This document shows positions 3,791 through 47,133 of a stretch of 64,000 bases of DNA, in pieces. Every line of letters starts with the position of its first letter. Position 1 is the stretch's first letter. Made by a program: the position numbers and the translations under genes. The stretch is from Chrysomallon squamiferum (taxonomy: Eukaryota; Animalia; Mollusca). Below the pieces are notes generated by a model. That model saw only the letters and a list, made by a program, of their open reading frames with translations. It was not told where the DNA came from and searched no databases. Where the stretch lies: assembly GCA_012295275.1 (NCBI GenBank), contig CM022670.1, positions 26,040,001 through 26,104,000 on the forward strand. The letters are read 5' to 3'.

Positions 3791-4861
3791 ATGTCCAACA
3801 TCACCAATACCTGTGACGTTAAAAGAGAAAGTGGTTTACATATCCCACTGGGACTGCACGTTTTTGCTGGAATTGGTATGTTTGTGGTAATACTTCTAGC
3901 TGTAGTGGGAAACCTGCTTGTGATTCTCTCGTTCATTCAGGATAAACAGCTTAGAAAGCCATACAACATGTACATCCTTAGTCTTGCCGTTTGCGATCTC
4001 TTCATCGGCAGCATCAGTATGCCATTCTATGCACATTACACCCTCAACAACTGGATTTGGATTTTTGGAAAGACGTTCTGTACAGTGTGGTCAGTCAATG
4101 ATTACTGTTTTTGTTTGGAAGTTATATTTCTTATCGTTCTCTTGAGCCACGACCGAGTTTTGTTGGTGACAAATGGACCCAAGTATGTTATAAAGGAAAC
4201 CAAATTTCGGGTAGGAATCAAAATAACAGTTTCTTTTATTGTCTCATTCAGTGTGTATGGATCTTGTATTATCGGCTGGGAGCACTGGAGAGGATATTCT
4301 ATTGTAGATCCCACAGACTGCGATATCGAGTTTTATGACAATTTTTACTTCAGTATTGCTATAGCCATTTTTGAACTTACTCTTCCTGTTGCAACAGTAT
4401 CTGTTTTGAATTTCATTGTTTTTTGGAAAATTCACAAGCGAATTAAAGTGCAAGGCATTTCAAATAACTATCGCAGAAATAAAAATTCGGAATTGCAAGA
4501 AGAGGTTGCAGACGACTCGTCTACCAAAAGTGATCGAGCAGAGAAATTCCATCGGTACCAAATCCAAAAATCTGTGAGACAAGACAAAAAAACCGCAAAG
4601 TTTCTGGCAATTCTTGTAATCACATTTTTGTTAATGTGGGGTCCATATACGATTATACAGTTGTTAAATAATATCTGCGAAGACTGTATCAACAGGCATG
4701 TGGAAGAATTTTTTGTCTGGTTTTTATGGACAAAGTCGTCTGTTAACCCGTTTCTCTACGCTCTTCAAAACACCCGATTTCGGATGAACATCTTCAGACT
4801 TTTACCATGCTTAAATCTGTTTTTTAAACGAAATAATCGCGTTGCAGTTGACGATAATTAG
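3791..4861 (+). CDS. Intronless class A aminergic GPCR, histamine H3/H4 receptor-like (~356 aa)
   Basis: Seven hydrophobic segments. TM1 GN, TM2 LAVCD, ECL1 WIFG..C, TM3 Asp (NDY) and DRV, TM5 FELTLP, TM6 WGPY, TM7 SSVNPFLY. N-terminal NIT sequon. First ATG is at 3791; the ORF track starts at an upstream TTG. Confidence 0.9.
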   Translation: MSNITNTCDVKRESGLHIPLGLHVFAGIGMFVVILLAVVGNLLVILSFIQDKQLRKPYNMYILSLAVCDLFIGSISMPFYAHYTLNNWIWIFGKTFCTVWSVNDYCFCLEVIFLIVLLSHDRVLLVTNGPKYVIKETKFRVGIKITVSFIVSFSVYGSCIIGWEHWRGYSIVDPTDCDIEFYDNFYFSIAIAIFELTLPVATVSVLNFIVFWKIHKRIKVQGISNNYRRNKNSELQEEVADDSSTKSDRAEKFHRYQIQKSVRQDKKTAKFLAILVITFLLMWGPYTIIQLLNNICEDCINRHVEEFFVWFLWTKSSVNPFLYALQNTRFRMNIFRLLPCLNLFFKRNNRVAVDDN

Positions 4862-7027: not shown

Positions 7028-7920
7028 GTAAGAAACATACGAACATTTCGGAACAGTTAGGTTGTTTACACTTTTTGTCATCAGACAGATATTTGTCCTA
7101 AACTGAACGGTAATACAAGGCTACTTGCTTAAGACAAAACATAATCATAAAATATATTATTATTATTTTACTGAGATACGTTATATGGCGCTGTCATCTT
7201 AGAGTTAAGTTGTTATTTTAATTTCAATCGGGAAACACTTGCCGATGTTTGAGACTATCCTTTATAAATTTCATAATATGCTGAAATGAGCTTTTGTAAA
7301 ACTTGCTCCATCAAACTATAGTATTGTAACACTAAATTTTTGATAATTTGTAAGTTATACAATTCTATTACGAGAAACTGATATATATATATGTAGGTCT
7401 TAAGATAACAACTTTATCATACTAAAACTAGAATGCCGAATTACAGCAAGACTGTCCAGAGCTGAGAAGCATACATTTTTTTGTTTTTATCCGTCAATCC
7501 AAAAAATTAATAAATATTAAATAAAATTAATTGTTTTATATTTCAGCTCATAAAGAGTTATAGTAGATTTATGCATATTGATTTCTTTGATATCCTGCAC
7601 ATGAAAAACAAAACAGTTTTTAAATAACAATTTGGACCATATACCAAAGAGTCTTACAGAAGTATCTATGAACTATGTGTTCAAACAAGTAATAAAACTA
7701 TGTTTTTGGACAGAGCCCACAAAAATGAATACAAAAATGTATCGATGACATCATCTTGCCATTGTGTATTTTTATTTTTTTTTTTTTATTATTGTTCTTG
7801 TTACATGATAGCATTTGTTTTTATTTTTTTTATTTTTATTTTCATGAAATTGTTTTCTAAAAAAATTTATATTTGAAGTTTTACTTATAATTTCGAATGC
7901 TTTTTCAAATCAGAATCAAG

Positions 7921-9477
7921 ATGGGTAACAAATCTACTAAAGGACAGGTCATAACAACTAAAAAACCTCCAGCAGTGCCTGAAGGACCACCATATCCAGG
8001 ACCCAGTGTTCAGTACTTCTTCTTAAACACAGAGGTATCAATGACCTCACAAATACATTTGTTTGGTAGCAGCATGATCACGACTGATGTTGACAACTAC
8101 TATCCACTTCTTGCAAGTAAATATTCAGAAGGTTTCAGACTGTTGACATTCTACCGGATTCCCTGTGCAAGCAAATTAAGTGGGTTGAAAACTGTGGTCA
8201 CTCCATTTCAAGGAATATTTTGTCGAGATCCTGCTGCACCTTTGCAGCTCAGAATTGAAAAGTCATTGTTGGTGACACAGAATATCCATAATGGTCTTAT
8301 TAATTTTAGTTTGACGCAAGGGCAAGTCAGTGACACAACCCACTTGTATCAGGCCATATTAAACAACACACAAAATGGTGGTCGACTTGTTTGTATTGAA
8401 ATGACTGGTGGTATGCAGAGCCAAGGATTTAAGGCAGCAAGCCATGGAATAAGTCCAAGTAGGTGCAGGTGTTTTTTTAAATAAGTTATTCCATAGGATT
8501 CTAATTGTTCTTAAACACAGTCTTCTATACACATTTGATTACATTTCAAAAATACTCAATGTTACTTTTTGTTAACTGTACTTCTTGATTTCATAGAATA
8601 TCTGTATAGAATGTTTAATTATTGTTCCCCAACAGTAAACAAATAAAGAAAGCATTTTTTTTTCTTTAATTTTGTGGGGGGTATGTCAAAAGCATTAAGC
8701 ATCATTGCCCCAGATAATTTTAATTTAAAACATCATTTTATGGCATCAGACTAATGTTATGAGATGCTAAATGTGAAAAAAAAAAAAATATATTGAGAAA
8801 TGTGGAAAATTTTATATTGACTGTTAGTTTTTTATTTTGATATAATGCTAATTTTTTTTTTTTTTCCAGAGATGGCAGTTGATCTCTTCTTTGAGATTCC
8901 AACATCACCAAATTCAGAGAGATATGTATACCAATCTGTTCCTATTCCATTCACAACAGAAAGCTCTTTCTCTTTTAGTGGACAAGATATTAGGGTCATC
9001 TGTGACTGGAATGGTAACTTGGCAAATCTCCTCAGTCAGGGTTGGCGACTTGTTGAGATTTTCAAAGATCAAACTACGACAACGCAACAGTCTGGTCTGT
9101 CAGTAAGCAGTACAATGAATGCAATCTGGTTCTTTGAAAAACCTGCTTCTTGTATTGAAGACTGCACTCCTCGCTACCAGGGTATGGTAGTCGAGCACTG
9201 GATGGATGTGGTAGGAGGGTTCAGAGGAACCAGTGCCAAAACTGGGTGGGAACCTGTGATTGAGCAGTTAGGTGGTCAGGGTTGGGAACTGGCTTGCATT
9301 CTTGAAACACCAGAAGTTAGAAGGAATGGTCTGGCTTCAATTCGTGTAAAAGTACTGCTTTTCCTTCAGAGACTGATTCTGCCACCTCTTGGTCAGGCAG
9401 CATGTTTTCAAACAGGAACAGCCACAGGTTATACTCCAGAACTTCCACCTTCCTATGAAGAAGCTGCCAAGCAGTAA
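7921..9477 (+). CDS. Raftlin-like protein; coding exons 7921-8458 and 8870-9477 (~381 aa)
   Basis: Phase-1 intron A|GTAGGT...tttttccAG|AG joins the two ORFs in frame. N-terminus MGNKST (myristoylation-type). VVEHW...WEPVIEQLGGQGWELACILETPEV...VLLFLQRLILP resembles the raftlin (RFTN1/2) core as I recall it. C-terminal PPSY. Confidence 0.75.
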
Positions 9478-10498: not shown

Positions 10499-13253
10499 TT
10501 ATGATAATTTTCTGTCTACAGTTTTCAGTAAGAGGTCTGCTGCAAAGCCTGGTGTGACAACACCTTTCACAACAAGTTTTTCTAATTTGGGCAGCTTCTT
10601 CTGCACTTCCGGACTTTGTTTAAATATCTCCATCACATCATGCTGCAAATGGCTCCACATCCACACTTTAAGCTGTTTTTTTCTCTTGGCTACAAATTCT
10701 CCTGATTTTAACATAGCTTCCTTGAAATTAATCATTTTGTTATAGAGTTCAGGAATACCTTCATTTTTAATTGATGATATTCTGCAAACCTATAAAATGA
10801 GGAATAAGTTAATCAAGTGCATTTAATTATAGTCATTAAAGTCTTTTATCTAATGTCTGTAACTTCCTATGACAATCAGCTGTAATAACTGTGGAGAGTG
10901 CTTGAAGTTTTTAATTGTTTACAATAATTATTCTTGTATATTTAGATTTACATTTTATAAAAAGAAAAAACAAACAAAAAAACATTTGTTGTAGTTATAA
11001 CAGTAGGATTTAAACCAGTATCAACATTTCAAAATTTCTATTGTTTTGGGGTTTTTTCTTAAAGGATTTATTTGTGATTATCCTGTGTTTTTTAAGATGC
11101 TAATCACAAATCTTGAAGATTTTTGTCACTGTTTAATTTTTTGGTGTGTTACCTGAGGTTTCCAAACCTTGGATCTGCGTCTCATGAACTTCAAAGCACT
11201 GATATACTCAGCTTGAATCCTTCGAGCAGCTGGTATCAGATCACCATCACTTTTATTTACAACAACAAGGTCTGCAACTTCAATGATACCTTTCTTAATT
11301 CCTTGAAAGAAAGAAAACAAAGCTGTACTTAATGATAACTTTCATTTTTAATAATCATTTTGTCAAAGATTTATAAAACACATAACAGGATATTTTCCTT
11401 TTAATAAGTTAGCTGTTGTTCCTGCTTTGTAATTTGGAGCTATTGCAGATAAAAAAAAAAGTAAAAAAAAAAAAGATGATCTTAATAATGGCCCTACTTT
11501 ACTAAATAGTATTTGTTTTAATAAATATGTTTCTTAGAGGCATAACATAACTTCTTGGAAAATCAAATATTTTCTTTTAGATTTATTTTTCAAGACAATA
11601 AATATGCCATGTATTCTGACTATTGAAATGGTTTTTTTTTATTTATTTATTTATTTATATTTATTTATTTAATTTTAACATTTTATAAAAACGACCTCAC
11701 AATAAAAGGGATAACAACAAGGACCTTGTTACATTATGTGTGTTTGTGAGTTTTTTTTTTTTTTTTTTTTTTTTATTATTATTTATTTTTAAATATTTAT
11801 ATATTTATTTTGTTCTTATCCTGACAATACAATCATTTGGAAGTATTAAAAAACATTGATATCATCAGAGGTACTGTTTAAAATAAAACAGCAAGTTAAC
11901 CACAAAGAACACATACCTTGCAGCTCATCTCCTCCTGCTGGGGGTATAATTAAACAGAAAAGATCTACCATGTCAGCAACAACAAATTCTGATTGACCAA
12001 CACCTATGGAAAACAGCAAATAAGAAAATGTTGTTTGGGAAATTATGTATGTTTGTAACAAAATTCAGTTAATGTTTTGAAGAGAATTAAAAAATAAAAT
12101 GCTTTCTAACACATCTGTATGAATTACAGTTTATAAATTACAATCATATACAATATTTTTAATAAACAAAATATGTTGTTTATTTGATAAAATAACAGAC
12201 AAAGAATAAATGTTTGATGTTGATTTGCTTATTTTGGTTTAATAATGAAGATGAGATTTCTTCACACCTCTGATAAAAAGTAGTAACAGTAACTAGTGTT
12301 ATTACACTGTCACTTAAGTTATATAAAAATATTTTTGGTGCAAGAGCTATCTGAAGTGATTCAAATTATATATTTGGAACAAATTTCACAACTTGTCAAG
12401 AATTTTACAAAAAGTTATGTTCATGTTATGTCTACTAAATACATGTGTTTCTGTACAGCAGAATATTTTCTTTGCCTTTCTGTTGTTAAAATATATATTG
12501 TGTATCTACTTAAACATTCAACAATAATTCAGATTAAACAGATTTATCTCAGTCTGAGTTGAGAACATACAACTTTGACATCTGAGCTGTTTCCTGTCAT
12601 ACATTTTCTGAAAATATTGATGGAAAATATTGATGTGACACAGACCAAACAAAAATCTAAATTCAGTGGAGATTTGTAGCAATGTTTAACGTACCCACTG
12701 TTTCAACCAGGATGATGTCGTAACCTGCTCCCTCACACAGGACAACTGCCTCATTGGTTGTCCGAGTGACTCCTCCGAGAGAACCAGATGCAGGAGATGC
12801 TCTGATGTAAGCATTCTCATCACGAGACAACTCTGGCATTCTTGTTTTATCTCCAAGCAAAGATCCTAAACAGGTTATTGTTGATTTTTAGAGAAAAAGT
12901 ATTTAAAGAATAGTTTGTAAAAAAAAAAAAATAATAATAATAATAATAAACAAGATTATTTTTTGATTTTAAGAGAAATTTTTATTAAACAATTAATTTG
13001 ACCCCTTTTCTCTGTTGGTGGGAAAGGTTAATACATTTATCACTTGTTTTTGTTTTGTTTTGTTTTTATTTATTTGCATTCGTTTTCCCCCATATTGTTT
13101 TAATTTAAAATTTGGTTTAGATGCAGAACATCAGACAAGAAATACATTTTTTGTTATCTTCTTTTATTAAATACTGTTTCTTGCTTTTAATTTTTATTTA
13201 TTTGTTTGTTTGTTTGAATGAAATTTATGCAGAAAGACCATAATTAACTGCTC

Positions 13254-13288
<35 letters not shown>

Positions 13289-13551
13289 TAACATAATTTA
13301 AGTGAGATTTAAATAGTTTAAATAAATATTTGAAATAAAAATACAGTAAAAGAAAAATGTAAACCTCCAGTGGTTGATGATGATGGGTCGACTGCAAGAA
13401 CAGCAACTCGCAGACCTTGACCTGTGAGAAACTTGCCAAATGTTTCAATGAATGTGCTCTTCCCTGCACCCGGTGGTCCTGTCAGGCCTGCAGAAACAAA
13501 CAAACAAACAAACAAACAAACAAATAAATAAATAAATAAATAAATAAAAGA

Positions 13552-13586
<35 letters not shown>

Positions 13587-14429
13587 ACAAATAAATAAAT
13601 AAATAAATTAATTAATTAAATAATTAAAGCCTTTAAAATATTTCGCACAGATTATTTTTAACATGTAATTATTATTTTTTGTTTTCTTTGGAAGTGTCGG
13701 GTTAATTTTATAATTTTTATTTTTATTTATTTTTTGAACAAATGGAATGTTTTTTTTTTTTTTTTTAACTGAATAAAAAAAATTATTTATAAGTTCAGTC
13801 ATAATGAACTGATACAATTGTAGACAGTCAAGTAGATTAAAATGATCATTCCCATGTTTTAATTGTTATACCAAACAGATTGTTGTCCAGATGTCTGCTT
13901 TTTTTTTCTTGCTTTTTTTTGTATTATTATTATTATTATTATTATGATTATTATTATTTTCTTAAATTATACCTATTCTAAAAGCTGAAGAATCCTTGAG
14001 AGAATGCTGATGTTGTTCCCTCTGGTGATGCAGAATTTTAGTCAACAACAACTGAGCCTGCTTTTTCTTCCCTGGATGTGTTGATTCAACTAGAGTTATT
14101 GCCCTTGCTAAACATGCTCTGTCACCTTTCAACAACCCATCAAACAGAAATTTAACACTGGCATCCATTTCTCCTAATTCATTTATTATATTCAGTTCAG
14201 CTGATTTGATGGAAGACTTATCACTAATTAATGGACACACAGTTAAATGAAATAATCTTCTTTGATTATGTGTACATGTTTTAAACCATGTCCACATACT
14301 AGCAGTCTGTGGCACTGTGACATGTAGAGTTCTGTGACAATGATGTGACACTTGAAGAGGGGTCACTATCCTACATGACAGAAGTGACAATCCAGAGAAA
14401 GTAAAAACTGGTCGAAGTGTTCTTGTCAT
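10499..14429 (-). CDS. MMAA: Methylmalonic aciduria type A protein (mitochondrial MeaB/ArgK GTPase); exons 14429-13973, 13487-13365, 12865-12695, 12003-11917, 11301-11153, 10789-10499 (~425 aa)
   Basis: [16 protein letters not shown]-loop [55 protein letters not shown]. All introns are GT-AG and phase-consistent. Arg/Ser/Thr-rich, acid-poor N-terminus consistent with a mitochondrial presequence. Confidence 0.96.
13497..13610. repeat. (CAAA)n/(TAAA)n microsatellite in an MMAA intron
   Basis: Tetranucleotide tandem repeats seen directly. Confidence 0.9.
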
Positions 14430-16543
14430 CTGCAAGTTCTGAAATAAAAAAAATAAATAACCACTGAAACAGAAGCTATGTTTTGTTTAGCTTTGGCTGT
14501 GTGTTCTTTTTATTTCACTACTTGGTGGTGGATTCAAAATCCTCAATGACTGTGTCTTGGTTAGGGTATGTAAATTCTTTTTTAAAGAATGAAAAATAAT
14601 CAAATTTTCTCATTTATTAATAGTCATAAATATATATTTGATTAAACATTTCAAATATTGGCACCTTTCTGTTCACAACTGAACAATATTACCACACAAC
14701 CGATTATTGTTTGTCATCTTTAACTGATATTGTTTTAATTTAAAAATTTAAAGAGATAAATAATTAATTTTTGGTTTTACACCTTATGAAAAAACATTCC
14801 CTTATTATTTATTAAGAAATAATTTCTTTATAAAAGATATCAGCTGTAAAACTTTTAAAAAACATATTCCACACATGAAAAATATACTGAATTATTATTA
14901 TTATTATTATTTTTGAGAAGTCCAAAACAAACTACTTTTTCTTGTTTTTCATTATTTTATTAAACACTGTCCAAATTCTAATAAGTTTACAGTAACATAA
15001 AAAAAAAAAAAAAAAAAAAAAAGTACAAATAAGTAATAATAATAACAATAAACATAAAAAAGATAAATAGGAATACAAATGTATATTTATATGGAGTACT
15101 AAACTGAGACAGAAATCACATGAAAAAGTTACAAAAATATAACAACTTTAAAATATGTATTTGTAGATACAGTCAATAAAGATATGTATGTGGATGAATA
15201 TGTAATGTATACATAAGTTTATATTTGTGTGTAAATATGTGTGTGTGTGTCTTAGGAGTCATGACAAAATAAAATAAATGTATATTAAGTAGATAACGAC
15301 ATATTTAGCAATAAATTATAGTGCTAACAGGCATAAAAACTACAAGTTTGTGCTTAATTTAAATTTAACAATTCACGATAATAATAATAATAATACATAT
15401 ATAGATATATATATAAATGTGGCTTTCATCCCTGAGATTATATAAATTATAAAAAACATCCCTGAGAAAATACACAATTTTCAGATCACAGCAGTCTTCA
15501 AATAATTATAAACTAAGCTAAACAAAATGCTGATTTACTTTAAAAATTGAATAATTATTCAAAATTACATTATAAAGTTGGTAACATTTTTTTAATAATA
15601 ATGAAGTAGAAAATACTGTTGTAGAATGGTGATATTAGAAGAAAAAACAAAAAAAAAAAATGAAATAACAACAAATAATATACATCTTGCTTAACTCATT
15701 TTAACAATAATTATTACTTTTTATTTCCTGTCTCTATAAAATTATATACATCATTTTAATTATATCGGAATAAATATTAAATTTATATATACATACATAT
15801 ATATATATATATATATACAATTCAGTGTTTATTCAGATATAATTAAAATGATATAGATAATTTTATTAAAATATTTTTTTACAATTACATACATACAATT
15901 AAACTTCACAATTTCAATAAAATTTATATAGTTTGAAAAATAATTTAATAACAGAAAATAATTTTTATAATGTTCAGTAAAAATTAATATGAGTATATTT
16001 TACAATTAAAATGTTCTCTTATATATTTATATTAACCAAATTTTAAAATAAAATAATCTTTTCCAGCACATATTCCCATTATTTTAGGAATAATTTTCAT
16101 AACTATTTTATTTACTAGATCAAATTTATATGTATATTTAAATTCACTAACTTGAAATGAAATGTAAAAGATAAATAAATAAATAAATAAATATATAAAG
16201 TTACCTGAATATACAAATGTAACATATTTGAGCTCCCATTCTAGCTTGAAAGTCTAGTTAAATATCACGAAATAAACTTTAATTGAGTCTAAGTAAACAT
16301 TAAAATGATGCCATGGTTAAAATATTAAAATTAATGTTAGCAATCACAACTGCATATTTACAATTACAAACAATTACGTATTTTCAATTTATAAAGGTAC
16401 ACAGTCAGTAACATATGTAATATAAGAAAGAGTATGTTGATATCTATAAAGCATGTAGAGGTACTAACAGTAAATATATCATATACAAATATATGAAGAA
16501 CAATATTCTGACAGAGATATTAACATTCTGACATGGCTGAGAT

Positions 16544-18019
16544 TCACCAGTCAAGTTTAACTGGATAGTCTCCTGAAAGACAAGCAATGCAATGTCCATG
16601 TTTCTCATCATCTTTCATTCCTTCTTCAACTGCTTTCTTTAACCCTTCCACTGACAGGTACTCTAAGCTATCCGCACCAAAATACCACCCAATCTGCTCA
16701 ATTGGCATCTGATTAGCAATGAGTTCTTCCTTTGTAGGAATGTTAATTCCCATATAACAAGGATATTTGATTGGCGGAGAGGCCACACGAATGTGAACCT
16801 CAGAGGCACCAAATGATTTCAGCAATCTCACAATATTGCCCATAGTGTTTCCTCGAACAATGGAATCATCAACCAGCACCACACGTTTGCCAAAAAAGTT
16901 CTCAGTCAGAGGCCCAAATTTTTTGGCAACTCCTAACTGACGTAATCTCATGCTTGGCTGTATGAATGTTCGACCAACATAGCGATTTTTGGACAAAACT
17001 TCCAAATACGGTATTTTTAAATGCTTGGCATAAGCCATAGCAGCTGGTGTTGCTGATTCAGGAACTGTGCTGATGAGATCAGCCTCCAGGGGTGCCTCAA
17101 GAGCCAGCTGTTTGCCACAACGTTGTCGGACTGTGTAAACCATCTGATTCTCTAAAGTAGAGTCTGGTCTTGCAAAGTAGACATATTCAAAAATACAAAA
17201 TGCTGGAAGTTTTGATTCAGGTCGTTCAGCAATGTAACAGGATTTAATGCCATCTTTGCTAATTTCCACTATCTCTCCAGGAAGAACTTCTCTGTGATAT
17301 CTGGCACCAATAGCATGGAAAGAACATGACTCTGAAGACACAACCCAGCCATCAATATCCTGATCTGTTATTGTATGATTGCTGGTAAAAGCTACTGCAG
17401 GTACAAGCTTGCCTATGCATAAAGGTCGATTGCCAAATGGATCTCGAACAGCATATATTCTGTCTTGATGCAAAATAACCAAAGAATAGGCTGTCAAAGC
17501 CTCAGTCATTAGCTTCTGAATGCGCCCTACCCAGTTAACTCCATTAGGCTCACCACAAGCAGGTGTGTGTGTCAGGAGCTGGGTGATTAGTTCACTGTCA
17601 GAAGTAGTAGAAAGACCAACTCCATGAAGAAGTAGTTTCTTCTTCAGAGCTCGTGCACTGACAAGCTCACCATTGTGTGCTACAGATATCAGACCATGGA
17701 TTGTTTCCACAGTGAATGGCTGAATATTCATCAAGTCTGAAACACCATGAGTTGAGTAGCGTGTATGGCCAATACCGAGATTTCCTTTCAGTCTCTGCAA
17801 GTCGTCTTCGGAAAACACAGAACTGACAAGGCCCATGCCTTTCTTCTGACGAAACTTTCCAGATTCCCCGTCAGTTGTGACAATACCAGCACTTTCCTGT
17901 CCTCTGTGCTGCAAACCAATGAGTCCCAGGTGGATAATCTGAGCTACATCAAGTTCACTGGGCCAGTTACCTCCACCAACACAACCAAATACACCACAAG
18001 CATCTTTCATTTCATCCAT
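16544..18019 (-). CDS. PPAT: Amidophosphoribosyltransferase (glutamine PRPP amidotransferase), uninterrupted 491-aa CDS
   Basis: Short propeptide MDEMKDA followed by catalytic [52 protein letters not shown] loop [12 protein letters not shown], Fe-S-type Cys motifs PCYMG and CIAC. Splice acceptor tttttccAG at 18087-18086 in the 5'UTR. Confidence 0.97.
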
Positions 18020-18809
18020 AATGTAGAAAGTTGTAGCTCTATGTTATTTTGTGAAATTGACTGGATTTTTTTCTTGATGTCTTTACTGGAAAAAAATAGA
18101 AATAAAATTGTTGAAAAGATAATACTGCTGTGAAAAAAAAAAAAAACACAGAAACAAACATGGGTAAAAGTGAAATAATTAAACATTATATACCAAGAAT
18201 AAACATAATACTTATTTCATCTTTTATTTACATATGGCAAACATCTAAAACAGAAAATATTTACACCAGCTTTTTTGTTCTCACATATTTAATGTATCGA
18301 TTGTGGACTTGTGATAAAGTAATAATGTGAGAATTTTCTGTTGGTTTCATAAGACTTGTTTGGAAACTAATTTATGAAAATTTATGTTCTGTAGTATGCT
18401 GAAATAATCTAGTGACAACACTAGGTACATTAAGAATTGGGTTTTCAGCATGAGTACCACATCTGATTTAAGAAAACTGTGAGGATGTCATATTTTGAAA
18501 ACTGAGACTTAAACAATTCCCCTTATACACTATTAAAGTACTGTCATTCTATCACATTAGTAATAACAACAGTTAATGATGAAAAGAAATGAAACGATAT
18601 ATTATTCAACATTAAAACAACACGTTAACCAAAATATTTTCTGGAACAATGAAACAGAAATGCAGTCTGACCATTACTATAATTATCTTTCAACAATGTA
18701 CTGAATATATTATGACAATTAATGTACTGAATATAAAATTTAAATATCCTCCATTAATTGATCAAACAGAAATTTAAAACAAGTATTATGTGATAAAGAA
18801 AACTATAGC

Positions 18810-19460
18810 TTATTGATTAAATATTGAAGAAATATCCTTTTTGATACTGTGAGCTATGCCTTACTGATTAAACATGTATTCCATATAATACAATACCATA
18901 TTACTTACTGATTAACAGTGCATTCTACATAACACAATACATAATGTCTTACTGGTTAAAAATATATTTCTTATAATACATGATACAGGATTACTAATTA
19001 AAACTACTCCTTGTAATACAATATATTCCTTTAACCAATTAAAAATGGATTCCATGCAATATAATACATATGATTCCTGTTTCAGACTATTTCATATAAC
19101 AAAAAACACAGTCTCATATGACTAAATATGTATTCCATGCAACGTAATATACCACAACTCACTGATTAATCCTCTAATCTGCATAATACAATACTGTGTT
19201 TTATCAGTTAAAAATGTACTCTTTATGCTATTTATTAGACTATCATTGATTAAAAATGTATTCCTTGTAAAACACTTAGTTTTAGTTATACATATTACTT
19301 ATAATACAATACACTGTTTTACTGTTTACAAATGCATTCCTTGTAATATTATACACTTTGTTTTAGTGATGCATATTCCTTACAATACAATACACAGTTT
19401 TACTGATTAAAAATATATTCCTTGTGATACAATACACTAACTAGTGATTAAAAATATGTA
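18810..19460. repeat. Degenerate ~42-bp minisatellite in the PPAT 5'UTR intron
   Basis: Recurring unit approximately ttactgattaaaaatgtattccttgtaatacaatacaca, roughly 15 diverged copies. Confidence 0.75.
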
Positions 19461-19526
19461 GTACAGATGATTTTATCTTAGTATTTACAAAATCTTTCAT
19501 AAAATATATTAGAATTACTGTCTTAC

Positions 19527-19548
19527 CTTTCACTATTTCAGCTATCAG
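19527..19548 (-). other. Candidate 22-nt non-coding micro-exon in the PPAT/MMAA 5'UTR
   Basis: tgttactttctgtAG|ctgatagctgaaatagtgaaag|GTAAGA on the minus strand. Confidence 0.4.
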
Positions 19549-21239
19549 CTACAGAAAGTAACAACACAAGTGTTACATGCTAACAAGATCAAACAGTTGT
19601 GAAGATCACCTCGTAACCTCATACACCAGTATCTCAAAAACTGTGAAGACACTTAATTAATGAACTAATCCCTTGCATAATTACATAACACCATTTTCTC
19701 AATCTGGACTGGCTGGAGCAAGTTCAGAATAGTTCATTATTGTTTACTGTTGTTGTTATTTTTATTTTTTCCTGGGGAGGGATTGTTTTTTTTATCTTCT
19801 TTTTTATTAAGTTGTCATAGTGATTATGCCTGAATAATATTTGCTAAGGTTAATAACAATTTGTCTGGTTAACTGACATGTTTGTGTCTTATGTAATTAC
19901 TGACTTAAAGTAAATCTTTTCAATTAGTGAAAAGATAAGCTGTCTAATTATCTTGATCAGTACCATCAATTATTCACTAAGTGAAATGAGTAAAATAGGA
20001 AACCTAATTATGAATGACCTACAGAACACAACCTTTCCCCAGCTTTTACTTACCTAATTTAATGTCAAATCCAACTTCTTTTTCCTTCAGATGTCACAAA
20101 TATTCATCTTCAGAAATGTAAAGGCTCTATTTAATTTTATCAGCAATATTATATGGGTAAAAATATTTCACTATTTTGTCAACTTGATAAATAAAGCAAT
20201 TTTTTTTTTACTAGCATGTCATTATTATTTCAACAGCTTGGTGGAATTCAAGCAAAATACCAGTTTGTATGTCAGTATATTTTACAATGTGACCAAGCCA
20301 TTAAGTGGATTTAAAAAAGATTAATTATTTTTGCAAAAATGTATACTGGTATGATTGGCTTATAGGCAGTTTATTAATATTCAACCAGTATAATTAATTA
20401 ACAGTTTCACTTAAACAAACTTTAATCAAGTAAATTATAAAAACTCAGTTAAGCAAATGTTAATCCAAATAATAATGAACTAAATTTTAATTAATCTATA
20501 GAAAAAATGGGGGAGGGACAAAAAAAAAAAAAAAAAAAAAGAAAGAAAAAGAAATAATAATAATAATAATAATGTTAATGTTAGGAATTCAGACTGTCTT
20601 TCTGTTTCTTACTTGTATTTTAACACCATCATTCTACAATTTAGCTCTGCAATAATTTTTCTTTCTTTTTTTCCAAAAATATCAGATATGCTAGTCACAC
20701 ATTTTTAGTTTCAGAAATCTGACTTGGAACTAAAGCCATAGTTTTGTTCTTTTTATTGGTAAACACAATACATATTCTTATTGAACATACTTGTAACAGT
20801 CTGGTTAAAGAAAACACGGTAATATGTCTTAGAAGAAATAAATTAATTATATTAGTAAAATTTTAAATTAATTCTTTATTGTGCACTTTCGGCCTAACAC
20901 ATACCTTTAATATACAATTTATAAATAAAAGTATCACTATCTGTGATTCTTTATTGTTTCTCATCCACACTTCTATTACTGTTCTTACTAAACACCATAT
21001 CTTTGTGGCCATGTATAAAATAACTAATAAAAAAAATAAATAAACAAAAAAAAAAGAAGACTCCAAAAAACAAAAACAGAACGAAAATATCTTCATCATC
21101 TTAATTATTATTATTATTATTATTATTATTACATTGATGGTAAACAGCTTAAATCTTATACTGATTCCTATGTTTTATATTTTAGGGGGTGTGAGGGTTT
21201 ATGATATCTCTTAATCTTATTCTACATGTTTATTACAAA

Positions 21240-23230
21240 TGTAAAGCGATTTCATACGAATCCGCATTTATTAGAGATATACTTAAAATAGTAAAACTAA
21301 TAAAAGGTTATGTGTAACGAAACGACTTGTGGATCTACTTACTTATAACAGATAATGTAATATACCCGTTTATACGATTTTTCTCCTATGATATGACTTT
21401 TTGGTTGACAAGAGAATACATTACATCTATGTGATCTCTCAACATGCTCTTTCAACCTTTTATTCGTGTAATACACACACGACAACACGCTTACTATTTT
21501 CGGGATTTTCCGTACATTTTTCTTTTATTCGTACATACTCGTACATTTCCGACTGGTTTATCAAAAATCTCTGATGTTTGTTTTGAATTTTTCTTCGGAA
21601 GCTGCTAATAGCAAATGGAGACTGTTTATCTGTGCTACCCTTTTCTGACAGTATCGTTAAATAACATACCCGCCTTCCTTCTGAACTGGTGATTTGGTAA
21701 TGCAATCTGTTGATGGATCCAGAACACGCGGTTCGTTTGGTTCATATTATTTGCAAAGTTTGACGCGGCTGAATAGTCATCAAACTAATTACTGTTAAAA
21801 AAGAAAGAAAGAAGAATAAATAATCCTATAATGACGTGATTAATAACTTTAAATAATTATTTACGCGGCTGAATAGCCATCAAACTAATTACTGTTAAAA
21901 AAGAAAGAAAGAAGAATAAGTCCTATAGTGACGTGATTAATAACTTTAAATAATTATTCCTTATGATTTTTATTTTTATTTTTTTTTTTTTTTCCCCAAC
22001 GAGTTCGTCACCAATATGCTGGTGGAGGAAGCAAAACTACAACATTCCATTAATAATAATAATAATAAATGAAAACAGTAAAATAAATAAACTTAACAAA
22101 ATAAAAATTCATAACGAGGAATTTCATGCTACTATTACTGTAAAATGCATTCATTTATAGTATTTATTCTTTTAAATTCTTGTTTGACTTATACATCATG
22201 CCAATTATAAAAATCTTAATGTTTATTGTATTTAACAATGCACTTTCAGAAATATAAGAAAGAGAAATATAACATGTATTATGACACACATATTATAAAT
22301 GTATTCGATCGATCTTAATTAATCTGTTACAGAAAAGTATGTAATGATATGAATCCAATTTTTATTTCCTCTAGAAATTAAAATAATTATATTTAGTGTT
22401 GCTTAGTTTTTGTTGTTTTTGACGATAAGTTTTCTGAAAACTATTAAAACATAAAACAGATATATAAAAAAAAAAAAATGGAGATAAACATTATTAATAC
22501 TATAGTATTAAAATGTAGAAAACTGAAAAGATATAAACCCAGTGAGTAAAATAATACTCGTGGAATGAAAGTAATGTAATTACATAAAATCTATTTGTAA
22601 AAGATTAATAACTATGTTGTCTTTATGGGTACTTTAATAAATAATTTAACTGTGTCTTTTTAATTTACTTTATACATGTTGGAATACGTTTTGTTTATTC
22701 TTAAATGATAACGTCCCTTTTCATAATTATATACAACACGTGCATGTGGAGCGTTCAAAATACCGAAGGAAATAACAAAAGAAGAAAGCGTCATGGAGCA
22801 TGACAGTGCTTGTTGCTCAAGTTTCTGAACGCCGATTATTTAGTTGTTTATTATTTAGTAAGTATAGAAAGTGCGATATATTACTGAAAATTTATAGACT
22901 ATTCATTGCATTTGATTAAGCAAAATTGCAGACAATCAAATTGCATTTCAAATAATATTTAGGAAAACGGATGTGCATAAAAAATTAAAATGTGAATTCA
23001 CGTCTGCGCTCTGGGTTGACGAGTCTTTTTGTTTTAGTTACTTTGTAAATAAATCGTTATTTATTTTGTAAATGAAAGAACTACATTTAACATTTTCTTG
23101 ACGAACCATACATCTTTAAAAAAGTAAAACATTACATTATTAGAATAAGTCCGTGGATATTTTTGCATAACAACGGGCGTCTAAATAAAAAAATGACTTG
23201 TTCAGACACCTTCAGGTTCTAAATGGCCGA
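21240..23230. promoter_or_regulatory. Bidirectional CpG-enriched promoter region between PPAT(/MMAA) and PCM1
   Basis: CpG clusters at ~21240-21960 and ~22700-23230 in otherwise CpG-poor DNA. Minus-strand donor CGG|GTATGT (exon end 21670), plus-strand donor TTA|GTAAGT (exon end 22857), E-box CACGTG at 22737, TGACGTGA twice. Confidence 0.65.
21763..21958. repeat. Near-identical tandem duplication of ~100 bp (21763-21862 / 21863-21958)
   Basis: Both copies read acgcggctgaatagycatcaaactaattactgttaaaaaagaaagaaagaagaataa...tgacgtgattaataactttaaataattatt. Confidence 0.95.
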
Positions 23231-24141
23231 TGTTTTCTTTTGTTACTAATCTTTCATTATTAGTCACATTGCCATCTATTAATTAAAAACTCTATTGTTA
23301 ATACTTCATATTTTCAACAAAATTTATACTGTTTATTTTATTTTAAATATTTTTTTCTTCTCCAGTAATTTTCATTATATTGGTTAATAAAATCTGATAC
23401 CTAATATAAGTTTATTCTACTCACTGGAAAAGTGTAACTCATCTTTACTTTTGAATATACTTGATGAAATATCGTAAAATGTAAATTCTAAAAACAAAAT
23501 TTGAATTTCTTTTATTTTAAAATATATATAATAATGTTACATATTATTCTATAAATTGGTCAGTATCGGTTCCAGCTGTTGATACAGTAAATATTAACTG
23601 ACTAAACTCATTATTTAAACAGCTAAACCAATATTAATTGGCTGCATATTAATTTTAATAATCCATTATTTAAATCCAGTGCTAGAACAGTTGATGATCT
23701 CAGTTTGTGTATGTAGAAAATATTTTATAAAAAAAATTTCAGCCCATTTTATATCAATTTTGCTTGCACAGGATCATTGTGGTCATCCATTACTAGGAAT
23801 TAGATTTTCATTAGTAATAACAACTGATTAAAAGATAGGGAAGAGTAACATTTGAAATTTACTATGTAATTTTTAAAGAAGTATCTGTTTGCTTTTCACA
23901 AAATCTGACTGGATAATAATAATAAAGAAAATATATTTCCAACATTTTTAACAGTTGATGCATGATGTCATACAACTATACACTCTGCTGTTAATGTAGT
24001 ACACTTCTTTATATATCTAATATAATGAAAGTTTTTGTTCACTTGAAGTTGTTGAACAGAAAATTACATAACAATTTTGTTTCCTTAGAAATATTAAATA
24101 AAATATATATATATATTTTATTTCCTATAAAGCTATTTGTT

Positions 24142-27100
24142 ATGGCAACTGGAGGTGTTTCAATGTCTAAGAAAGAAGTAAAGCAGCGAAGCAATTGGAA
24201 AAGGACGACCAGTTTTTCTGACCGAGATGATGCCTTGAGTTTGAGCAGTGTACCGAATGAAGTTCGTATTAATAACTGGGTAATTATCTTTGTACTACAT
24301 TCTTTGATTACTCATGAAACAAGAACTAATTTCAAATTGAATCTGTTTTGCTTTATTTTAGAAAAGTTATTTAATAATAATGAAAATGGATTACATAGTG
24401 GCAAAATATTAAAACATATTCTATATTTTAAATTTTTTCATTTTTTTTCAGGATTTCTCAGACTGGAAACCTACCACACAGTCACTTGATGGTAAACGTA
24501 AAAAGAAGTCAAAGGGCAACCCAGAGAGAGAAAGGGAACAATCTCTTTCACTAGACTCACCACCACAGACTGAGAAAAAACAACACACACCTTCCACATA
24601 TCCAAGAACCCGTATCACAGCAACAACACCAACTTCTCAACGAGTGGCCTTAGAAAATCTTCGGCAACATATGACATTTAGTGACTTTGATGATGTATGT
24701 AAAGCTTTTTCATTTTTAAAATTGTGTCCTCATACTAATTAGCAGGCTGTCATTCTTAAAAATAAGTTTTAACTAATGTACTAGATTTAAAAGAATATAA
24801 AATAATACAAAACCAATTCATTAAAGTAATCTTGCATTTAATTAAGATACTTAAATGGTTTACTTATCTCTTAATTGTCAATTAATGTATCATATTTTAT
24901 GATTGTTTAAAAAATACATGTTCAACAATAATATCTTTTTCACAATTGTACAATTTTTAATGAATTTTGCAGCAGGCCGGTGCAGAAGGTGAACCAAATA
25001 ACGAACGAGTTGTGAACACTGATCGTCATCGCCAGCCCAACTATAAACGCCCCGGTGCCTCAGGAAGCATGGATGATCTTCTTCGTCCAAACCGGGAGGT
25101 GAGAGTCAACTGCAATAACAACAGTGCTGAGGCTGAGGGGGCTTTAGGGGTAGGCAGGACATTTAAAAATATTTTGGGAGGTGATGAGTGAAATATAATT
25201 ACTACTACCACAGCATTTTGTTGGTTTAGCCTTTTTGATGGTGTTGAGTGTTTGAAACACAAACAAGTATCTTTTGTTTCTAAGCTAGATTTAAATTGGT
25301 TAAATGGGAATGTTGATGTAAATGTTTGACAGCTACTGTTACTTATTCTAACAATGATTTAAAATATACAAATGGTTCAGTTTAGACATTACATACTTTA
25401 TTTTTAATAAGCTCTATAAAATAAGAAATTTTATTTTATTTTATTTCATGTATTTTATTTGATGTGTTTGAAAATAAATGTGTAATTTAAATATTTAATG
25501 TTTCAGCCGGACAGTAACCAAATAGTTGGTCGACTGATGCAGATACGTGACTACATAAAACAAGCCTCTAGCATGATGGAAAATCTTCATAAATTTGGAG
25601 ATCAGGTTTTCATATAATCAATATTCATAAAAAAAATATAATAATATTCCAGCTGTTGTTGTACCATTGTAATGTAGGCATGAAAGAAATGACTGTTCTC
25701 ATATTTTATTTTTCATTCTATCATCAGTACGGTTTGATTAGCTTCAGATAAATGTGGAAAATGAATTAATGTTGAAGTCATTAAACATGACTTTGTACTT
25801 ATCTTTCATTATTAATGTTTTTACGAGATGGGTGTTAATGTAAATAGCTATAAATTAAAAGTTAATTTTGAAAATTTAAACTTGTTGTAGACTGATGAAG
25901 AAAGAGCTGCTAAGTTAAAACAAGTGATTACTTCGCTGAAAGAACAAGAACAAAACTGTCTGGACAACTTGCAGAAGCTCTGGGTTAGTTTGTTTACACT
26001 TTTGTTTTGTTGTTCTAGCGTTCTTATAAAGAAGACTTGGAAAAGTTGAAAAAGCTAGTAGACAATCTTAAAGACCAAGAGCATGGGTACATGGGCCTAC
26101 TTCAGGGCATGTTGGTGAGTACCAAGCTCATTTATCAGGTGTTCATTTTGAAGCCTTTTAGAGCATTTAATTTCCTTCATCTTCTCTAAATGTGTTGTTG
26201 GTTGTGGCTTAGCAATACAATTTTAATTTGCTAGCCAATTTAAGATTAAACTGATATTGTTATGGTGCAGTTTATGCAATCTAACCATTGAACTTGGTTT
26301 GGCATGCATGTATAATTAGGTAACAGTTCTAGATACTGTCAAAGCATCACTGAACTTGCCTTGTGCACGTCTATGTATATTTATGTTTGGCCCTGATAAA
26401 TAAAAATCCTTTTGTAAATAGACGTGTTTCTCAGATATTTGTAGCTACTCTGTATTTCTGATTAGTAGAAAGGATTCTTGAAAAGTAGTACATGGAAAAC
26501 CAGAGACAAATTTCAGAAAAGAAAATTACGAAAAAATGTGGAAAAATTGTTTCTTTCTTTTAAGGCAATGCGAGATGAAGCACTGTTACGGATGCCTAAT
26601 GGCACAGGCCCTTCTCCAGTTCAGGAGGAAGATAAACGTGATTCTGATGACACGATATCTGTGGATCTTGAAATCCATACAAATGCCTCTGAGACAACAG
26701 TAAGTTTGTGTTATATTTAATTCTTGGGTAATTTTGAGAATTATAAAAGGAATATCAGTAAATTAAACAAAATTTTCATGAATATTATTAAAACTAGTAA
26801 AATAAAATCAAGGTCATGATATGGTTAATTAAAAAAAAAAAAAAAAAAAAAAAATAGTAGTTTATAGAAAGTTCAATAATGTTTGTACTTTGTTGTTTTT
26901 ATTTATAAAGGAGGACAACACTCTGAGTTCATCATCGCGTCCTCGTATAGAGGATAAACTGGGGGATACTGATGGAGGTGAAAGTGAAAATTCCAACACC
27001 TCAGAGGCCTCTGAGAATATGGACAATACTGTTATTCCAGGTCACTTAAAAAGACATACACACTGGGATATTGACAGAGATGTTGAGGTATTTCTTAATA

Positions 27101-30100
27101 TTTTTAAAATATTATATTTCATATTTTAAAAGATAATTTCTAATTATTATAACTAGATTTTCTTTTTCAAAACATGAAATATTTTTAATACAAAATTTTA
27201 AATATCAATAAAGTTAATAGTCATTTATTATTTTTAAAAGTAATTACCCTTTAATCTGTCTTTTTAAAAAGCAAAATTAATATTAATGATTAAATCACTT
27301 ATATTTCAGTTAAAATTCTGAAATAAACATTGATAGATAAGCTATTTTATTTAGAAATTAAAAATTCAGAGTTTATTTTTAAAAAGTATTTTTTCCTCTG
27401 CAATCTTTGTAGTAGCTGTTCAGTGAAAAGATTTAATAAATATCTTACTTTGTTAATTGTGTTTTTATCGTATAAAACAAATAGGAGACTCCTGTTGTCG
27501 AGGTGAGCAATGAAAGAGAACAGATAGAACACCTAAAACATCAGGAAGAACTGCTGAAAATACTACTTGAAAAACAAGCTCAGGTGAGTTGAAATTCATA
27601 TTATTATTTCTAAGTTCATTGGTTTTGAAAGTGTTTGATTAAATTTTCATTAATTAATAACTGCATTGAGTTTTACAAATTTCAGAATAAATTTACAATA
27701 CATAGTTCTTTTATGATCTTTAAGGTTGATATTTCTGTTTTAATGGAAACAATTTTTTTTTAGCTGAAAGCTTTACAAGAACGACAGGATGCGTTGCTGA
27801 GTATGAAGGATAGTTGTGAAAAGCGATTAGCCATTGCTTCATCTAAACAAAAAGAAGGTTGGTTTCAAATTACATAATTGCAAGTTACCTCTAATACATT
27901 TCAGAATTATTATACAGAGGCTAAATTTAATTTTTTTATCTTATTGTATAAAAATTTCTATTCAAAAGGTATTTTAAGACAAAACAAAATTAAAAATAGA
28001 TTTTTTTTTTTTATAGGCAAAAAAGCCTAATAAGGAAAATTAACTTGTATCCATTTTACCTAAAATTTATTAGATACTGTTACAAAAATCAACAGTTATG
28101 TATGTATGTACATATTAATAGAAAAGGAAATCTGTTTTTATGAATTTTTGCTTTATTACCTAGTTTAATCAGATTGATCATTATTCTGATTTTAGACGAA
28201 ACTTATATTCTGCATTAATGAGAGTATAATTAACTGTTTATAAATACCTAAATACAATGTAAGGACAGAGTTCTAGTTTATTTTTGATGTTTAAGGCATT
28301 TAATGTCATTTACAAGATAACCCTTGGATTTTAAGTGAACGTTTGGAGAAATCTTCTAATGAATGTTTATAACATTTTTCACTGTTTTGTCTTCTTATCA
28401 TCCTTTCAGCAGCTGGAATAACAGCCCAGATAACAGCAGCAGTGGAAGAGGCTGGAGCACAAGCAGCAGTCCTGCGGCAGGATTTTCCACCACTGAAATC
28501 AAATATTGTAGGCTATCCAGAATCTGAGGAAGAAGAGCGAAATAGTGAACAGCATGTACCTAAAGAACTGGCTGATTTGAGACGAGATCTCAACATACTC
28601 AGAAATGAGTTAAAAACTGAGGTAACAGTTATTTTTAAAATCCATTAATTATTGGGATTCAAATTTTCTTTGTGTCTACATAATTTATTTTTAGAACTTA
28701 ATATAATAATTTATATAAAAATAGTTTTTGTTATGTAAAGTTTCATAAACAGATAATTTGGAAAAAGGGAATTTAATGGCAAATAAGTAATGTGAATAAA
28801 ATTTGATACTGTTAAAAACTTATAATCTTAGGAGTGCATATTATTTGTCTTTCTCTTTATGTTACTTGTATATGCTTTCAGACAAGCAATCTGAATAACA
28901 CAGAAGCAGAAACAGCAACTTTGATCAGCAACAGACAACAGCTGAAAGATAAAATGCGAGATTTGCAGGAAAAGAAACAACAAATGGATATACTACTTGG
29001 TCAGCTGCAGAATCTTAGGACAAGAGGACTTGATCAAGAGGATTATGCTAACACAGGTATTGTTGTTTTCATCATTTGCTGGCAGAATATCTAAATGTAA
29101 AGTTATGTTGACGCCAACATTTTTACAAAATGATTATTTTAGGTGTTTTTTCTTTTCATTCTTTATAACGTAAACACCTTCTACTAATCTTTCATATTAA
29201 CCAAAAATTTATTTAAATACCAATGAGTAACAATTTTATGTATAAAATTTTGATTCAATTAAAATTGTACAGCCTTTGGTAATCAACAAATATATTTTTA
29301 AAGATGATGACAACACAAGCCCAACATCATCCCAGGTTAAAATCACTGATTCACTGGGTGCTTCAGCTGCTGCTGGGGAAACTGCAGAGTCTGCCCAAGA
29401 GATGCTTGACATGATGGATGCACAAAATAAACTGAGGTAAATTTTTATTATCATTGTAATTTCATGATAGTTTGAATTACTTTGAGGTCCTTCAGAAAAA
29501 AATGGAACCTAAAGAGAAACTAAATTAAAATATTTATTTCAGATTCTATTGCAAATTCTTTTGTAATTAATTAATGTTGTTGGAATTGTTTTTTCCAGCC
29601 AGCTACATGATGTTCGTGACAGACTTAACAAACTGCGAGATTTGGTTCAGTATTATCAAACAACAAAACGTGACCATTCTGAAACAACAGAACAGGACGA
29701 GCAGTCATCTGTTCCTGGTTATAGTGATTATGGAGAAGGGGAACCAAGCAGGATCAGGTATACAGAGATAAATAAAACACTTTAAATCTAGAATAGAGAT
29801 TAGATATTAGTTTGAAATTATTTGTGGATTTTTTGTTGTTGTTGTTGTTGTTGTTTTAACAAAACAAAATTATCTTTACCTATGAAAAATAGTTTTCATG
29901 TATTTTTATTTTTCCAGTTTATTGTATAGCTAAGTATTAACTACTTATCAGTGTTAAAAAATCACAACTTGACTGACTTTATCAAACTGTATTTAACATA
30001 CATTTATAGCTTTGAAACTTGACACAAGTCACTTAGAAATACAAATTTCTGTATTTAAATAAAGGAGCGTGTGCATAATGTGCCAAATACTTTTACATAT

Positions 30101-47063: not shown

Positions 47064-47125
47064 GTTATAACAGTATTGCTGAAAGGGACTACGAAATGCG
47101 TTAACGTCTTTGAACTGCGTGGATG

Positions 47126-47133
47126 TGACGTCA
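47126..47133. promoter_or_regulatory. Full CRE palindrome TGACGTCA upstream of the 217-aa ORF
   Basis: Exact 8-bp match 63 nt 5' of ATG 47063. Confidence 0.45.

What the first reader, a model, noticed from the sequence alone, without database searches (positions are those of the whole stretch)
14438..21670. PPAT and MMAA appear to share one transcription unit (nested or bicistronic locus encoding two unrelated enzymes)
Seen in sequence: MMAA's first coding exon starts at a strong acceptor (tttatttcAG, 14440-14439), so it needs an upstream exon. The 2.1 kb between it and the PPAT stop is extremely AT-rich and lacks the CpG cluster seen at the other apparent promoters here (7.0k, 21.5k, 22.9k, 47.1k, 51.5k). 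PPAT is on the same strand and also starts at an acceptor (18087-18086). The nearest promoter-like region is ~21.2-21.9k, with a donor at 21670. Inference: a common non-coding first exon splices either to the single PPAT exon (then polyadenylates) or skips it to reach MMAA. That would make de novo purine synthesis (cytosolic PPAT) and the B12/methylmalonyl-CoA mutase chaperone (mitochondrial MMAA) alternative products of one promoter.
Basis: partly seen in the sequence, partly recalled or inferred. Interest (0 to 1): 0.85.

Follow-up and report, generated by a model that had tools for sequence, protein, structure and literature searches.

The report
Two enzymes share one first exon
In a relative of deep-sea vent snails, RNA shows one short non-coding exon spliced either to the purine-synthesis gene PPAT, whose coding part has no introns, or past it to the vitamin-B12 helper gene MMAA, so two unrelated enzymes likely come from one promoter, a known type of gene nesting that our searches did not find reported for this pair.

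Summary
The core claim holds; the coordinates and the word 'bicistronic' do not. The window comes from a close relative of Gigantopelta aegis (PPAT 93.5% identical). An intact PPAT ORF with no coding introns (18019-16544, minus strand) lies directly upstream of a complete six-coding-exon MMAA. RNA contigs (4 shallow runs, one study) show two GT-AG joints from one donor: exon end 21343 to 18085 (PPAT, run X4) and 21343 to 14438 (MMAA, run X1). The proposed donors at 21670, 19527 and 16205 were not seen used. PPAT is therefore an alternative terminal exon inside MMAA's 5'-UTR intron, and each mRNA carries one ORF. In G. aegis the two genes have near-consecutive accessions, one annotation row each, and sit on one contig with PCM1. 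In 23 of 26 species compared they are 43 or more identifiers apart. Other gastropod PPATs show signs of coding introns, so a retrocopy that replaced its parent is likely (about 70%), though not shown. The layout matches RBM12/CPNE1 and VAChT/ChAT: a new member of a known kind.

The parts
21343..21472 (-). Shared non-coding first exon (3' end exact; 5' end is only where contigs stop: 21444, 21465, 21472). Holds three upstream ATGs with ORFs of 19, 1 and 11 codons.
   Evidence: tables 5 and 8
21341..21342 (-). Shared splice donor GT (TAA|GTAAGT)
   Evidence: both joints have GT..AG ends on the minus strand; context
18086..21342 (-). PPAT 5'-UTR intron, 3257 nt (first part of MMAA intron 1)
   Evidence: joint 21343-18085 in run X4, 130 letters on the short side, depth 5.8
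14439..21342 (-). MMAA 5'-UTR intron, 6904 nt, enclosing the whole PPAT exon
   Evidence: joint 21343-14438 in run X1, 30 letters on the short side, depth 6.4
16233..18085 (-). PPAT terminal exon: 66 nt leader, whole coding sequence and 3' UTR (3' end not mapped; patchy RNA cover to at least 16233)
16544..18019 (-). PPAT coding sequence, 491 aa, no intron; propeptide then Cys8, PRPP-binding motif and four Cys at the Fe-S positions (motif roles recalled)
   Evidence: GATase and Pribosyltran Pfam hits
16107..16283 (-). First two candidate PPAT poly(A) signals (ATTAAA at 16283, AATAAA at 16112); 13 such hexamers lie in the AT-rich 2.1 kb, so use is unproven
13973..14438 (-). MMAA coding exon 1 (9 nt leader, ATG at 14429; basic N-terminus with 4 R/K and no D/E in 40 aa, likely a mitochondrial presequence)
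13365..13487 (-). MMAA coding exon 2 (123 nt, P-loop)
12695..12865 (-). MMAA coding exon 3 (171 nt)
11917..12003 (-). MMAA coding exon 4 (87 nt)
11153..11301 (-). MMAA coding exon 5 (149 nt)
10499..10789 (-). MMAA coding exon 6 to the stop codon (MeaB Pfam hit)
21001..23300 (.). CpG-undepleted zone, likely the promoter region for the shared exon and probably for PCM1 on the other strand
   Evidence: 54 CpG, observed/expected 1.25, against 0.14-0.32 across the transcribed bodies
21197..21342 (-). Unspliced continuation of exon 1; contigs of X1 and X2 stop at 21201 and 21197, about 30 nt past an AATAAA at 21234-21229. Possible short promoter-proximal RNA (weak hint; strand unknown).
   Evidence: no Rfam family there

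Best explanation
One non-coding exon is spliced either to the intron-free PPAT coding exon or, skipping it, to MMAA, so a single promoter likely yields two separate one-enzyme mRNAs, and PPAT likely got there as a retrocopy that replaced its parent gene. Shown: both joints from donor 21342, intact ORFs, and the nested geometry. Inferred, step by step: Pol II starts near 21470 on the minus strand in the CpG-undepleted zone. Use of the near acceptor (18086) followed by cleavage at a poly(A) signal past 16544 gives PPAT mRNA. Skipping that acceptor and reading through the signal lets the donor reach 14439 and gives MMAA mRNA. Each transcript becomes one or the other, so the ratio would be set by splice and poly(A) competition, not by separate promoters. 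Origin (about 70%): a processed PPAT cDNA landed in sense orientation in MMAA's 5'-UTR intron after the split from abalones, gained an acceptor, took broad expression from the host promoter, and the intron-bearing parent was lost. The pairing is most likely an accident of two housekeeping genes, not a designed metabolic link.
For: Joints 21343-18085 (X4; the contig runs 66 nt into the PPAT CDS region past the ATG, to 17949) and 21343-14438 (X1; runs to 14101), both GT..AG. The 30-letter side equals the overlap expected where 31-mer contigs branch, and X1's other pieces begin or end at exactly 21343 and 21372 (the branch reading is my inference). CpG depletion is continuous from MMAA through PPAT to 21000. 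G. aegis: PPAT XP_041358673, MMAA XP_041358675-677; both on ctg1019 with PCM1 and a histamine-receptor-like GPCR, as in the window, and K00764 and K07588 each occur once in 21,440 annotation rows (PMC7895826 supplement 6). The PPAT tree puts the window with Gigantopelta and one unnamed ENA protein (100/100), sister to Haliotis (99/95). Biomphalaria and Littorina PPAT isoforms differ by internal 6-aa and 25-aa inserts, and a 40-aa ENA fragment starts at the Littorina insert site, which points to coding introns there. For 8 of 8 human MMAA variants, the published exon number equals the window's coding-exon number plus one, which fits an ancestral leader exon on MMAA.
Against: Each joint rests on one contig in one run, all four runs come from one study, the two joints were not seen in the same run, and likeness was set to 92 with the MMAA side at the tool's 30-letter caution line. 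An X1 contig reads unspliced across the MMAA acceptor (14411-14666, depth 4.0), which fits pre-mRNA, DNA, PPAT read-through or a second MMAA start. No target-site duplication (best flanking match 10 nt) and no A-tract of 8 or more downstream of the PPAT stop. PPAT and MMAA share a chromosome-scale contig in many molluscs, Owenia, Lineus and amphioxus, and lie 3-5 identifiers apart in two unionid mussels; a random retro-insertion would not be expected to land back on the same chromosome. Intron status in Haliotis, Patella and G. aegis itself could not be read from DNA.
Confidence: 0.85

Rival explanations
1. Same shared-exon splicing, opposite history: PPAT owns the promoter and exon 1, lost its coding introns in place by recombination with its own cDNA, and MMAA, brought next to it by a rearrangement on their common chromosome, borrowed PPAT's first exon.
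For: Ancient linkage of the two genes on one chromosome, and near-adjacency in Potamilus (tags 041911/041916) and Sinanodonta (031360/031363). Oyster PPAT isoforms differ by a 4-aa N-terminal extension and several molluscs have multiple PPAT transcripts with one protein, which suggests PPAT has its own 5' leader exons. No retro-insertion scars.
Against: It needs loss of every coding intron in place. The unionid proximity could be chance: about 7-13% for any of 14 lineages if a chromosome holds 1000-2000 genes (my rough model). The nearest outgroups, Haliotis and Patella, have the genes hundreds to thousands of identifiers apart.
Confidence: 0.2
2. MMAA has its own main promoter just upstream of 14438, and the 21343-14438 joint is a minor read-through product.
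For: One X1 contig crosses the MMAA acceptor unspliced (14411-14666). G. aegis MMAA has three RefSeq transcripts with one protein, so its UTRs vary.
Against: The spliced contig is deeper (6.4) than the unspliced one (4.0), though contig depth is a poor measure. The spacer has CpG observed/expected 0.26, like gene bodies. The exon begins at a pyrimidine-rich AG only 9 nt before the ATG.
Confidence: 0.08
3. A true bicistronic mRNA carries PPAT then MMAA, for example through the donor at 16204 in the PPAT 3' UTR.
For: The GT at 16204 scores well (rank 5 of 517).
Against: No joint from 16205 was listed, and MMAA already has a direct joint to exon 1. Such an mRNA would have a stop codon upstream of six introns and be a likely decay target (general knowledge). 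The data are shallow, so a minor form is not excluded.
Confidence: 0.04
4. The joints are artefacts (chimeric contigs, repeats or another organism), or PPAT is a bacterial or symbiont gene.
For: 4 of the 6 listed joints are junk-like repeat joins with non-canonical ends, so the data do produce false joints; libraries are metatranscriptomic.
Against: The two joints of interest are the only 2 of 6 with GT..AG ends, share one base in two runs, and land on acceptors predicted beforehand; pieces differ by 0-3 letters. The tree places PPAT among gastropods, far from bacterial rows.
Confidence: 0.03

Closest known systems
RBM12/CPNE1 and the other human promoter-sharing pairs (PMC2568002; read part 1 of 7 and search passages)
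   Same: Two unrelated ORFs share the most 5' non-coding exon(s) and promoter; the shorter gene's coding sequence lies in one large terminal exon; the choice is attributed to poly(A) use and alternative splicing. The paper tabulates 24 human pairs.
   Different: Different genes and phylum. Here both products are metabolic housekeeping enzymes and the pair looks confined to peltospirid-like snails, whereas RBM12/CPNE1 is kept from zebrafish to human. That paper does not discuss retroposition (0 hits for 'retro').
Cholinergic gene locus, VAChT inside ChAT (PMC7524744, tick; search passages)
   Same: Shared exon 1; the second exon of VAChT spans its whole ORF and lies in ChAT's first intron. This is the same geometry.
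   Different: VAChT and ChAT act in one pathway and the locus is described as common to metazoans; PPAT and MMAA act in different pathways and compartments and the nesting is lineage-restricted.
Orphan retrogenes (PMC3548309; abstract and passages)
   Same: A single-exon coding copy that is the only copy of a gene with intron-bearing orthologues elsewhere.
   Different: That study covered single-exon human genes only; here the copy also borrows a host's exon. Retroposition is inferred here, not shown.
Intronic retrogenes with their own promoter, such as Nap1l5 in Herc3 (PMC3467052; abstract only)
   Same: A retrogene in a host intron that affects the host's poly(A) and splice choice.
   Different: Nap1l5 has its own imprinted CpG-island promoter; PPAT here has no CpG-rich zone of its own and uses the shared exon.

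Membership tests
Promoter/first-exon-sharing gene pair (RBM12/CPNE1, VAChT/ChAT type) | Same 5' exon spliced to both genes | tested here: met
   Two GT-AG joints from exon end 21343, one contig each
Promoter/first-exon-sharing gene pair (RBM12/CPNE1, VAChT/ChAT type) | Unrelated, non-overlapping coding sequences on one strand; shared exon adds no coding sequence | tested here: met
   GATase/PRT versus MeaB domains; upstream ATG frames all stop before either CDS
Promoter/first-exon-sharing gene pair (RBM12/CPNE1, VAChT/ChAT type) | Same transcription start sites for both mRNAs | not testable with these tools
   Contigs cannot show starts; three runs stop at 21444-21472
Nested gene (same strand, in host intron) | Whole guest ORF lies inside a spliced intron of the host | tested here: met
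   PPAT 16544-18019 lies within the 6904-nt skip 14439-21342
Bicistronic/polycistronic mRNA | One mature mRNA carries both ORFs | tested here: not met
   No joint or contig links the PPAT exon to MMAA; both listed joints give one-ORF forms. Shallow data, so a minor form is not excluded.
Orphan retrogene | Coding sequence without introns where orthologues have them | tested here: met
   Continuous ORF; coding introns in other gastropods inferred from isoform inserts and exon-sized fragments, not read from their DNA
Orphan retrogene | Parent copy absent from the genome | tested here: inconclusive
   No genome held for this window; in G. aegis K00764 occurs once in 21,440 rows and one G. aegis PPAT is among the 120 listed hits
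Orphan retrogene | New genomic position relative to the ancestral locus | tested here: inconclusive
   Not near MMAA by identifiers in Haliotis or Patella, but on the same chromosome; 3-5 apart in unionids; the published synteny table gave no outgroup row for PPAT or PCM1
Orphan retrogene | Target-site duplication or poly(A) remnant | tested here: not met
   None found; such scars are expected to decay in an old insertion (general knowledge)

The most novel reading that the evidence does not exclude
The only gene for the first committed step of purine synthesis in vent peltospirid snails is an orphan retrogene that took over the MMAA promoter, and the exon-1 donor works as a regulated three-way switch (PPAT, MMAA, or a short RNA ended near 21200) that trades purine synthesis against B12-dependent propionate disposal by tissue or by symbiont supply.
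Probability: 0.07. Interest if true: 0.75.

Novelty: new member of a known kind. Interest (0 to 1): 0.42.

Why it matters
[quoted passage not shown] Because each transcript becomes PPAT or MMAA, the locus is a clean place to test whether splice and poly(A) competition can tune two housekeeping outputs. It also warns that annotation and RNA-seq counting can merge or misassign the two genes. The architecture itself is established, which caps the surprise.

Tried and rejected
No whole genome is held for this window, so a second PPAT copy could not be sought directly. PPAT itself is thinly covered: no depth in 16897-17163 in any of the 4 runs; this is not evidence against expression. Four of 6 listed joints and the loose ends shown (18 of 37) sit at A/T-rich repeats or single contigs and were set aside. 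A metagenome scan with PPAT gave 80 loci of 580 confirmed candidates, the best at 63-64% identity, none from a close relative, and none hit by MMAA. A search with MMAA exon 1 gave one hit, used as the query. Rfam on 14400-24200: one weak match (mir-3149, E 0.12, 27 bits against a cut-off of 100) on an AT repeat, rejected. Horizontal transfer rejected by the tree. Identifier distance is only a proxy for gene order: RefSeq numbering is not strictly positional (my knowledge); Capitella and Mya were left out of the count as non-comparable series, and Aplysia, Physella, Candidula and Mytilus coruscus gave only differing contig lengths. The donor score uses a rough recalled frequency table and ranked the real donor only 17 of 517, so it does not predict use. 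Earlier findings: two look-ups returned nothing. Literature: searches listed no paper on a PPAT/MMAA shared exon among the rows shown, but 'PPAT' also matches PLoS Pathogens DOIs, so those searches were noisy; the main text of PMC7895826 has 0 hits for PPAT, MMAA or purine and its large supplementary PDF could not be read. A retroposed Prat in Drosophila and the vertebrate PPAT-PAICS head-to-head promoter are recalled and come from no call.
Full report
What the window is. The ORF at 18019-16544 (minus strand) encodes a 491-aa amidophosphoribosyltransferase. Its best hit is Gigantopelta aegis PPAT at 93.5% identity, then Haliotis at 75%, so the source is a peltospirid-like gastropod, not identified to species. 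Downstream on the same strand, six exons from 14429 to 10499 form one open 425-codon MMAA frame with GT-AG flanks, 70.6% identical to G. aegis MMAA. PCM1 lies on the plus strand beyond the promoter zone (PCM1_C hits at 35713-38287), and a raftlin-like gene and a rhodopsin-family GPCR lie on the other side.

Checking the observation. The spacer between the PPAT stop and MMAA is 21% GC with CpG observed/expected 0.26; the PPAT upstream intron is 0.14; the zone 21001-23300 is 1.25. Reading this as methylated gene body against an unmethylated promoter rests on general knowledge of invertebrate methylation.

Direct RNA test. Five public runs hold parts of the stretch; four are RNA, from one study. 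Their contigs were laid on 13960-21950 at 92% likeness. Six joints were listed, and only two have GT..AG ends. One joins 21343 to 18085 (run X4, 130 letters on the short side, depth 5.8; the contig spans 21472-21343 and 18085-17949, so it includes the PPAT ATG). The other joins 21343 to 14438 (run X1, 30 letters on the short side, depth 6.4; it runs on to 14101 and includes the MMAA ATG). The 30-mer is unique in the window, and X1's neighbouring pieces end at 21343 and begin at 21372, as expected at a branch between 31-mer contigs (my inference). The donor is TAA|GTAAGT at 21342. Limits: one contig per joint, different runs, one study, no DNA control, and an X1 contig that crosses the MMAA acceptor unspliced (14411-14666).

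How it likely works. Transcription likely starts near 21470. The donor then chooses between the near acceptor, which opens a terminal exon with the whole PPAT ORF, and the far acceptor 6.9 kb away, which requires reading past PPAT's poly(A) signal. Each mRNA has one ORF, so the locus is nested and alternatively spliced, not bicistronic. Three upstream ATGs in the shared exon open frames of 19, 1 and 11 codons that end before either CDS and would affect both mRNAs if the start lies above them. Contigs in X1 and X2 also run unspliced past the donor and stop at 21201 and 21197, about 30 nt after an AATAAA. This may be a short third product, but contigs show neither ends nor strand.

Conservation. 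In G. aegis, PPAT is XP_041358673 and MMAA is XP_041358675-677. In supplement 6 of PMC7895826, PPAT, MMAA, PCM1 and a histamine-receptor-like GPCR are all on ctg1019, and K00764 and K07588 each occur once in 21,440 rows. Supplement 2 lists PPAT and PCM1 in one block shared with Chrysomallon squamiferum; MMAA is not in that table. Of 26 species with comparable identifiers for both genes, 3 are within 5: G. aegis, Potamilus and Sinanodonta. The other 23 are 43 or more apart, including four Haliotis and two Patella species. Many of these have both genes on one chromosome-scale contig, so the linkage is old and only the nesting looks recent. An unnamed ENA protein (P0242, 92.7% to the window, on a 1.05-Mb contig) is a full-length third relative; if it was called as one ORF, the intron-free state is shared (inference).

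Origin. The tree (38 rows, IQ-TREE) groups the window with G. aegis and P0242 (100/100), sister to Haliotis (99/95), so this is the ordinary gastropod orthologue. Internal isoform inserts in Biomphalaria (6 aa) and Littorina (25 aa), and a 40-aa fragment that starts at the Littorina insert site, point to coding introns in other gastropods. Human MMAA has seven exons (PMC6042273, passage), and for 8 of 8 variants taken from PMC6042273 and PMC8283478 (passages) the exon number is the window's coding-exon number plus one, mapped through a 418-aa mammalian protein. That human exon 1 is non-coding is recalled. Together these favour MMAA as host and PPAT as a retrocopy that replaced its parent, which I put near 70%. 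Against this: no insertion scars, the shared chromosome, and the unionid proximity, which chance would give about 7-13% of the time on a rough model. Loss of introns in place with MMAA borrowing PPAT's exon stays open at about 20%.

Comparison with known systems. PMC2568002 (part 1 of 7 and passages) describes RBM12, with its CDS in one exon, sharing 5' exons with CPNE1, and lists 24 human pairs. PMC7524744 (passages) shows the tick VAChT ORF in one exon inside ChAT's first intron with a shared exon 1. PMC3548309 (abstract and passages) defines orphan retrogenes; PMC2584115 (passages) classifies retrocopy contributions to host genes; PMC3467052 (abstract) covers an intronic retrogene with its own promoter. 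The locus meets the tested features of a first-exon-sharing nested pair and fails the bicistronic test. Searches showed no report of this pair among the listed rows; they were noisy, and most subscription papers are not in the library.

Verdict. It is a new member of a known kind. Interest 0.42.

Noticed in passing
window 21197-21372: Unspliced contigs past the shared donor are the deepest pieces at this locus in X1 (24.6) and the only form in X2; both stop within 4 nt of each other, about 30 nt after an AATAAA on the minus strand. Possible promoter-proximal termination, or a plus-strand RNA.
   Followed up: partly
window 21760-21958: Two tandem copies of about 100 nt (97% over 60 nt) some 290-490 nt upstream of the apparent start, each with a TGACGTGA motif (CRE/ATF-like, recalled).
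   Followed up: partly
window 18856-19438: Degenerate tandem repeat of period about 39-44 nt inside the 5'-UTR intron.
   Followed up: no
window 19419-19932: Intronic RNA cover in X2 and X3 around two high-scoring unused donors (19526, 20053); a possible minor cassette exon or pre-mRNA.
   Followed up: no
window 24142-40144: PCM1 on the plus strand, head-to-head with the PPAT/MMAA unit across one CpG-undepleted zone, so three genes may share the region; its first coding exon near 24142 is inferred.
   Followed up: partly
window 7891-9477: Two-exon-like gene on the plus strand with a Raftlin Pfam hit (E 1.8e-11), ending tail-to-tail with MMAA.
   Followed up: no
window 3791-4861: Single-ORF rhodopsin-family GPCR; G. 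aegis has a histamine-H4-like receptor on the matching contig.
   Followed up: no
window 46410-47171: 253-codon minus-strand ORF, hydrophobic, in a CpG-rich zone, with no Pfam match.
   Followed up: no
Potamilus CHS0354_041911/041916; Sinanodonta ACJMK2_031360/031363: PPAT and MMAA are also near neighbours in two unionid mussels, unlike other bivalves; chance or an old micro-synteny.
   Followed up: partly
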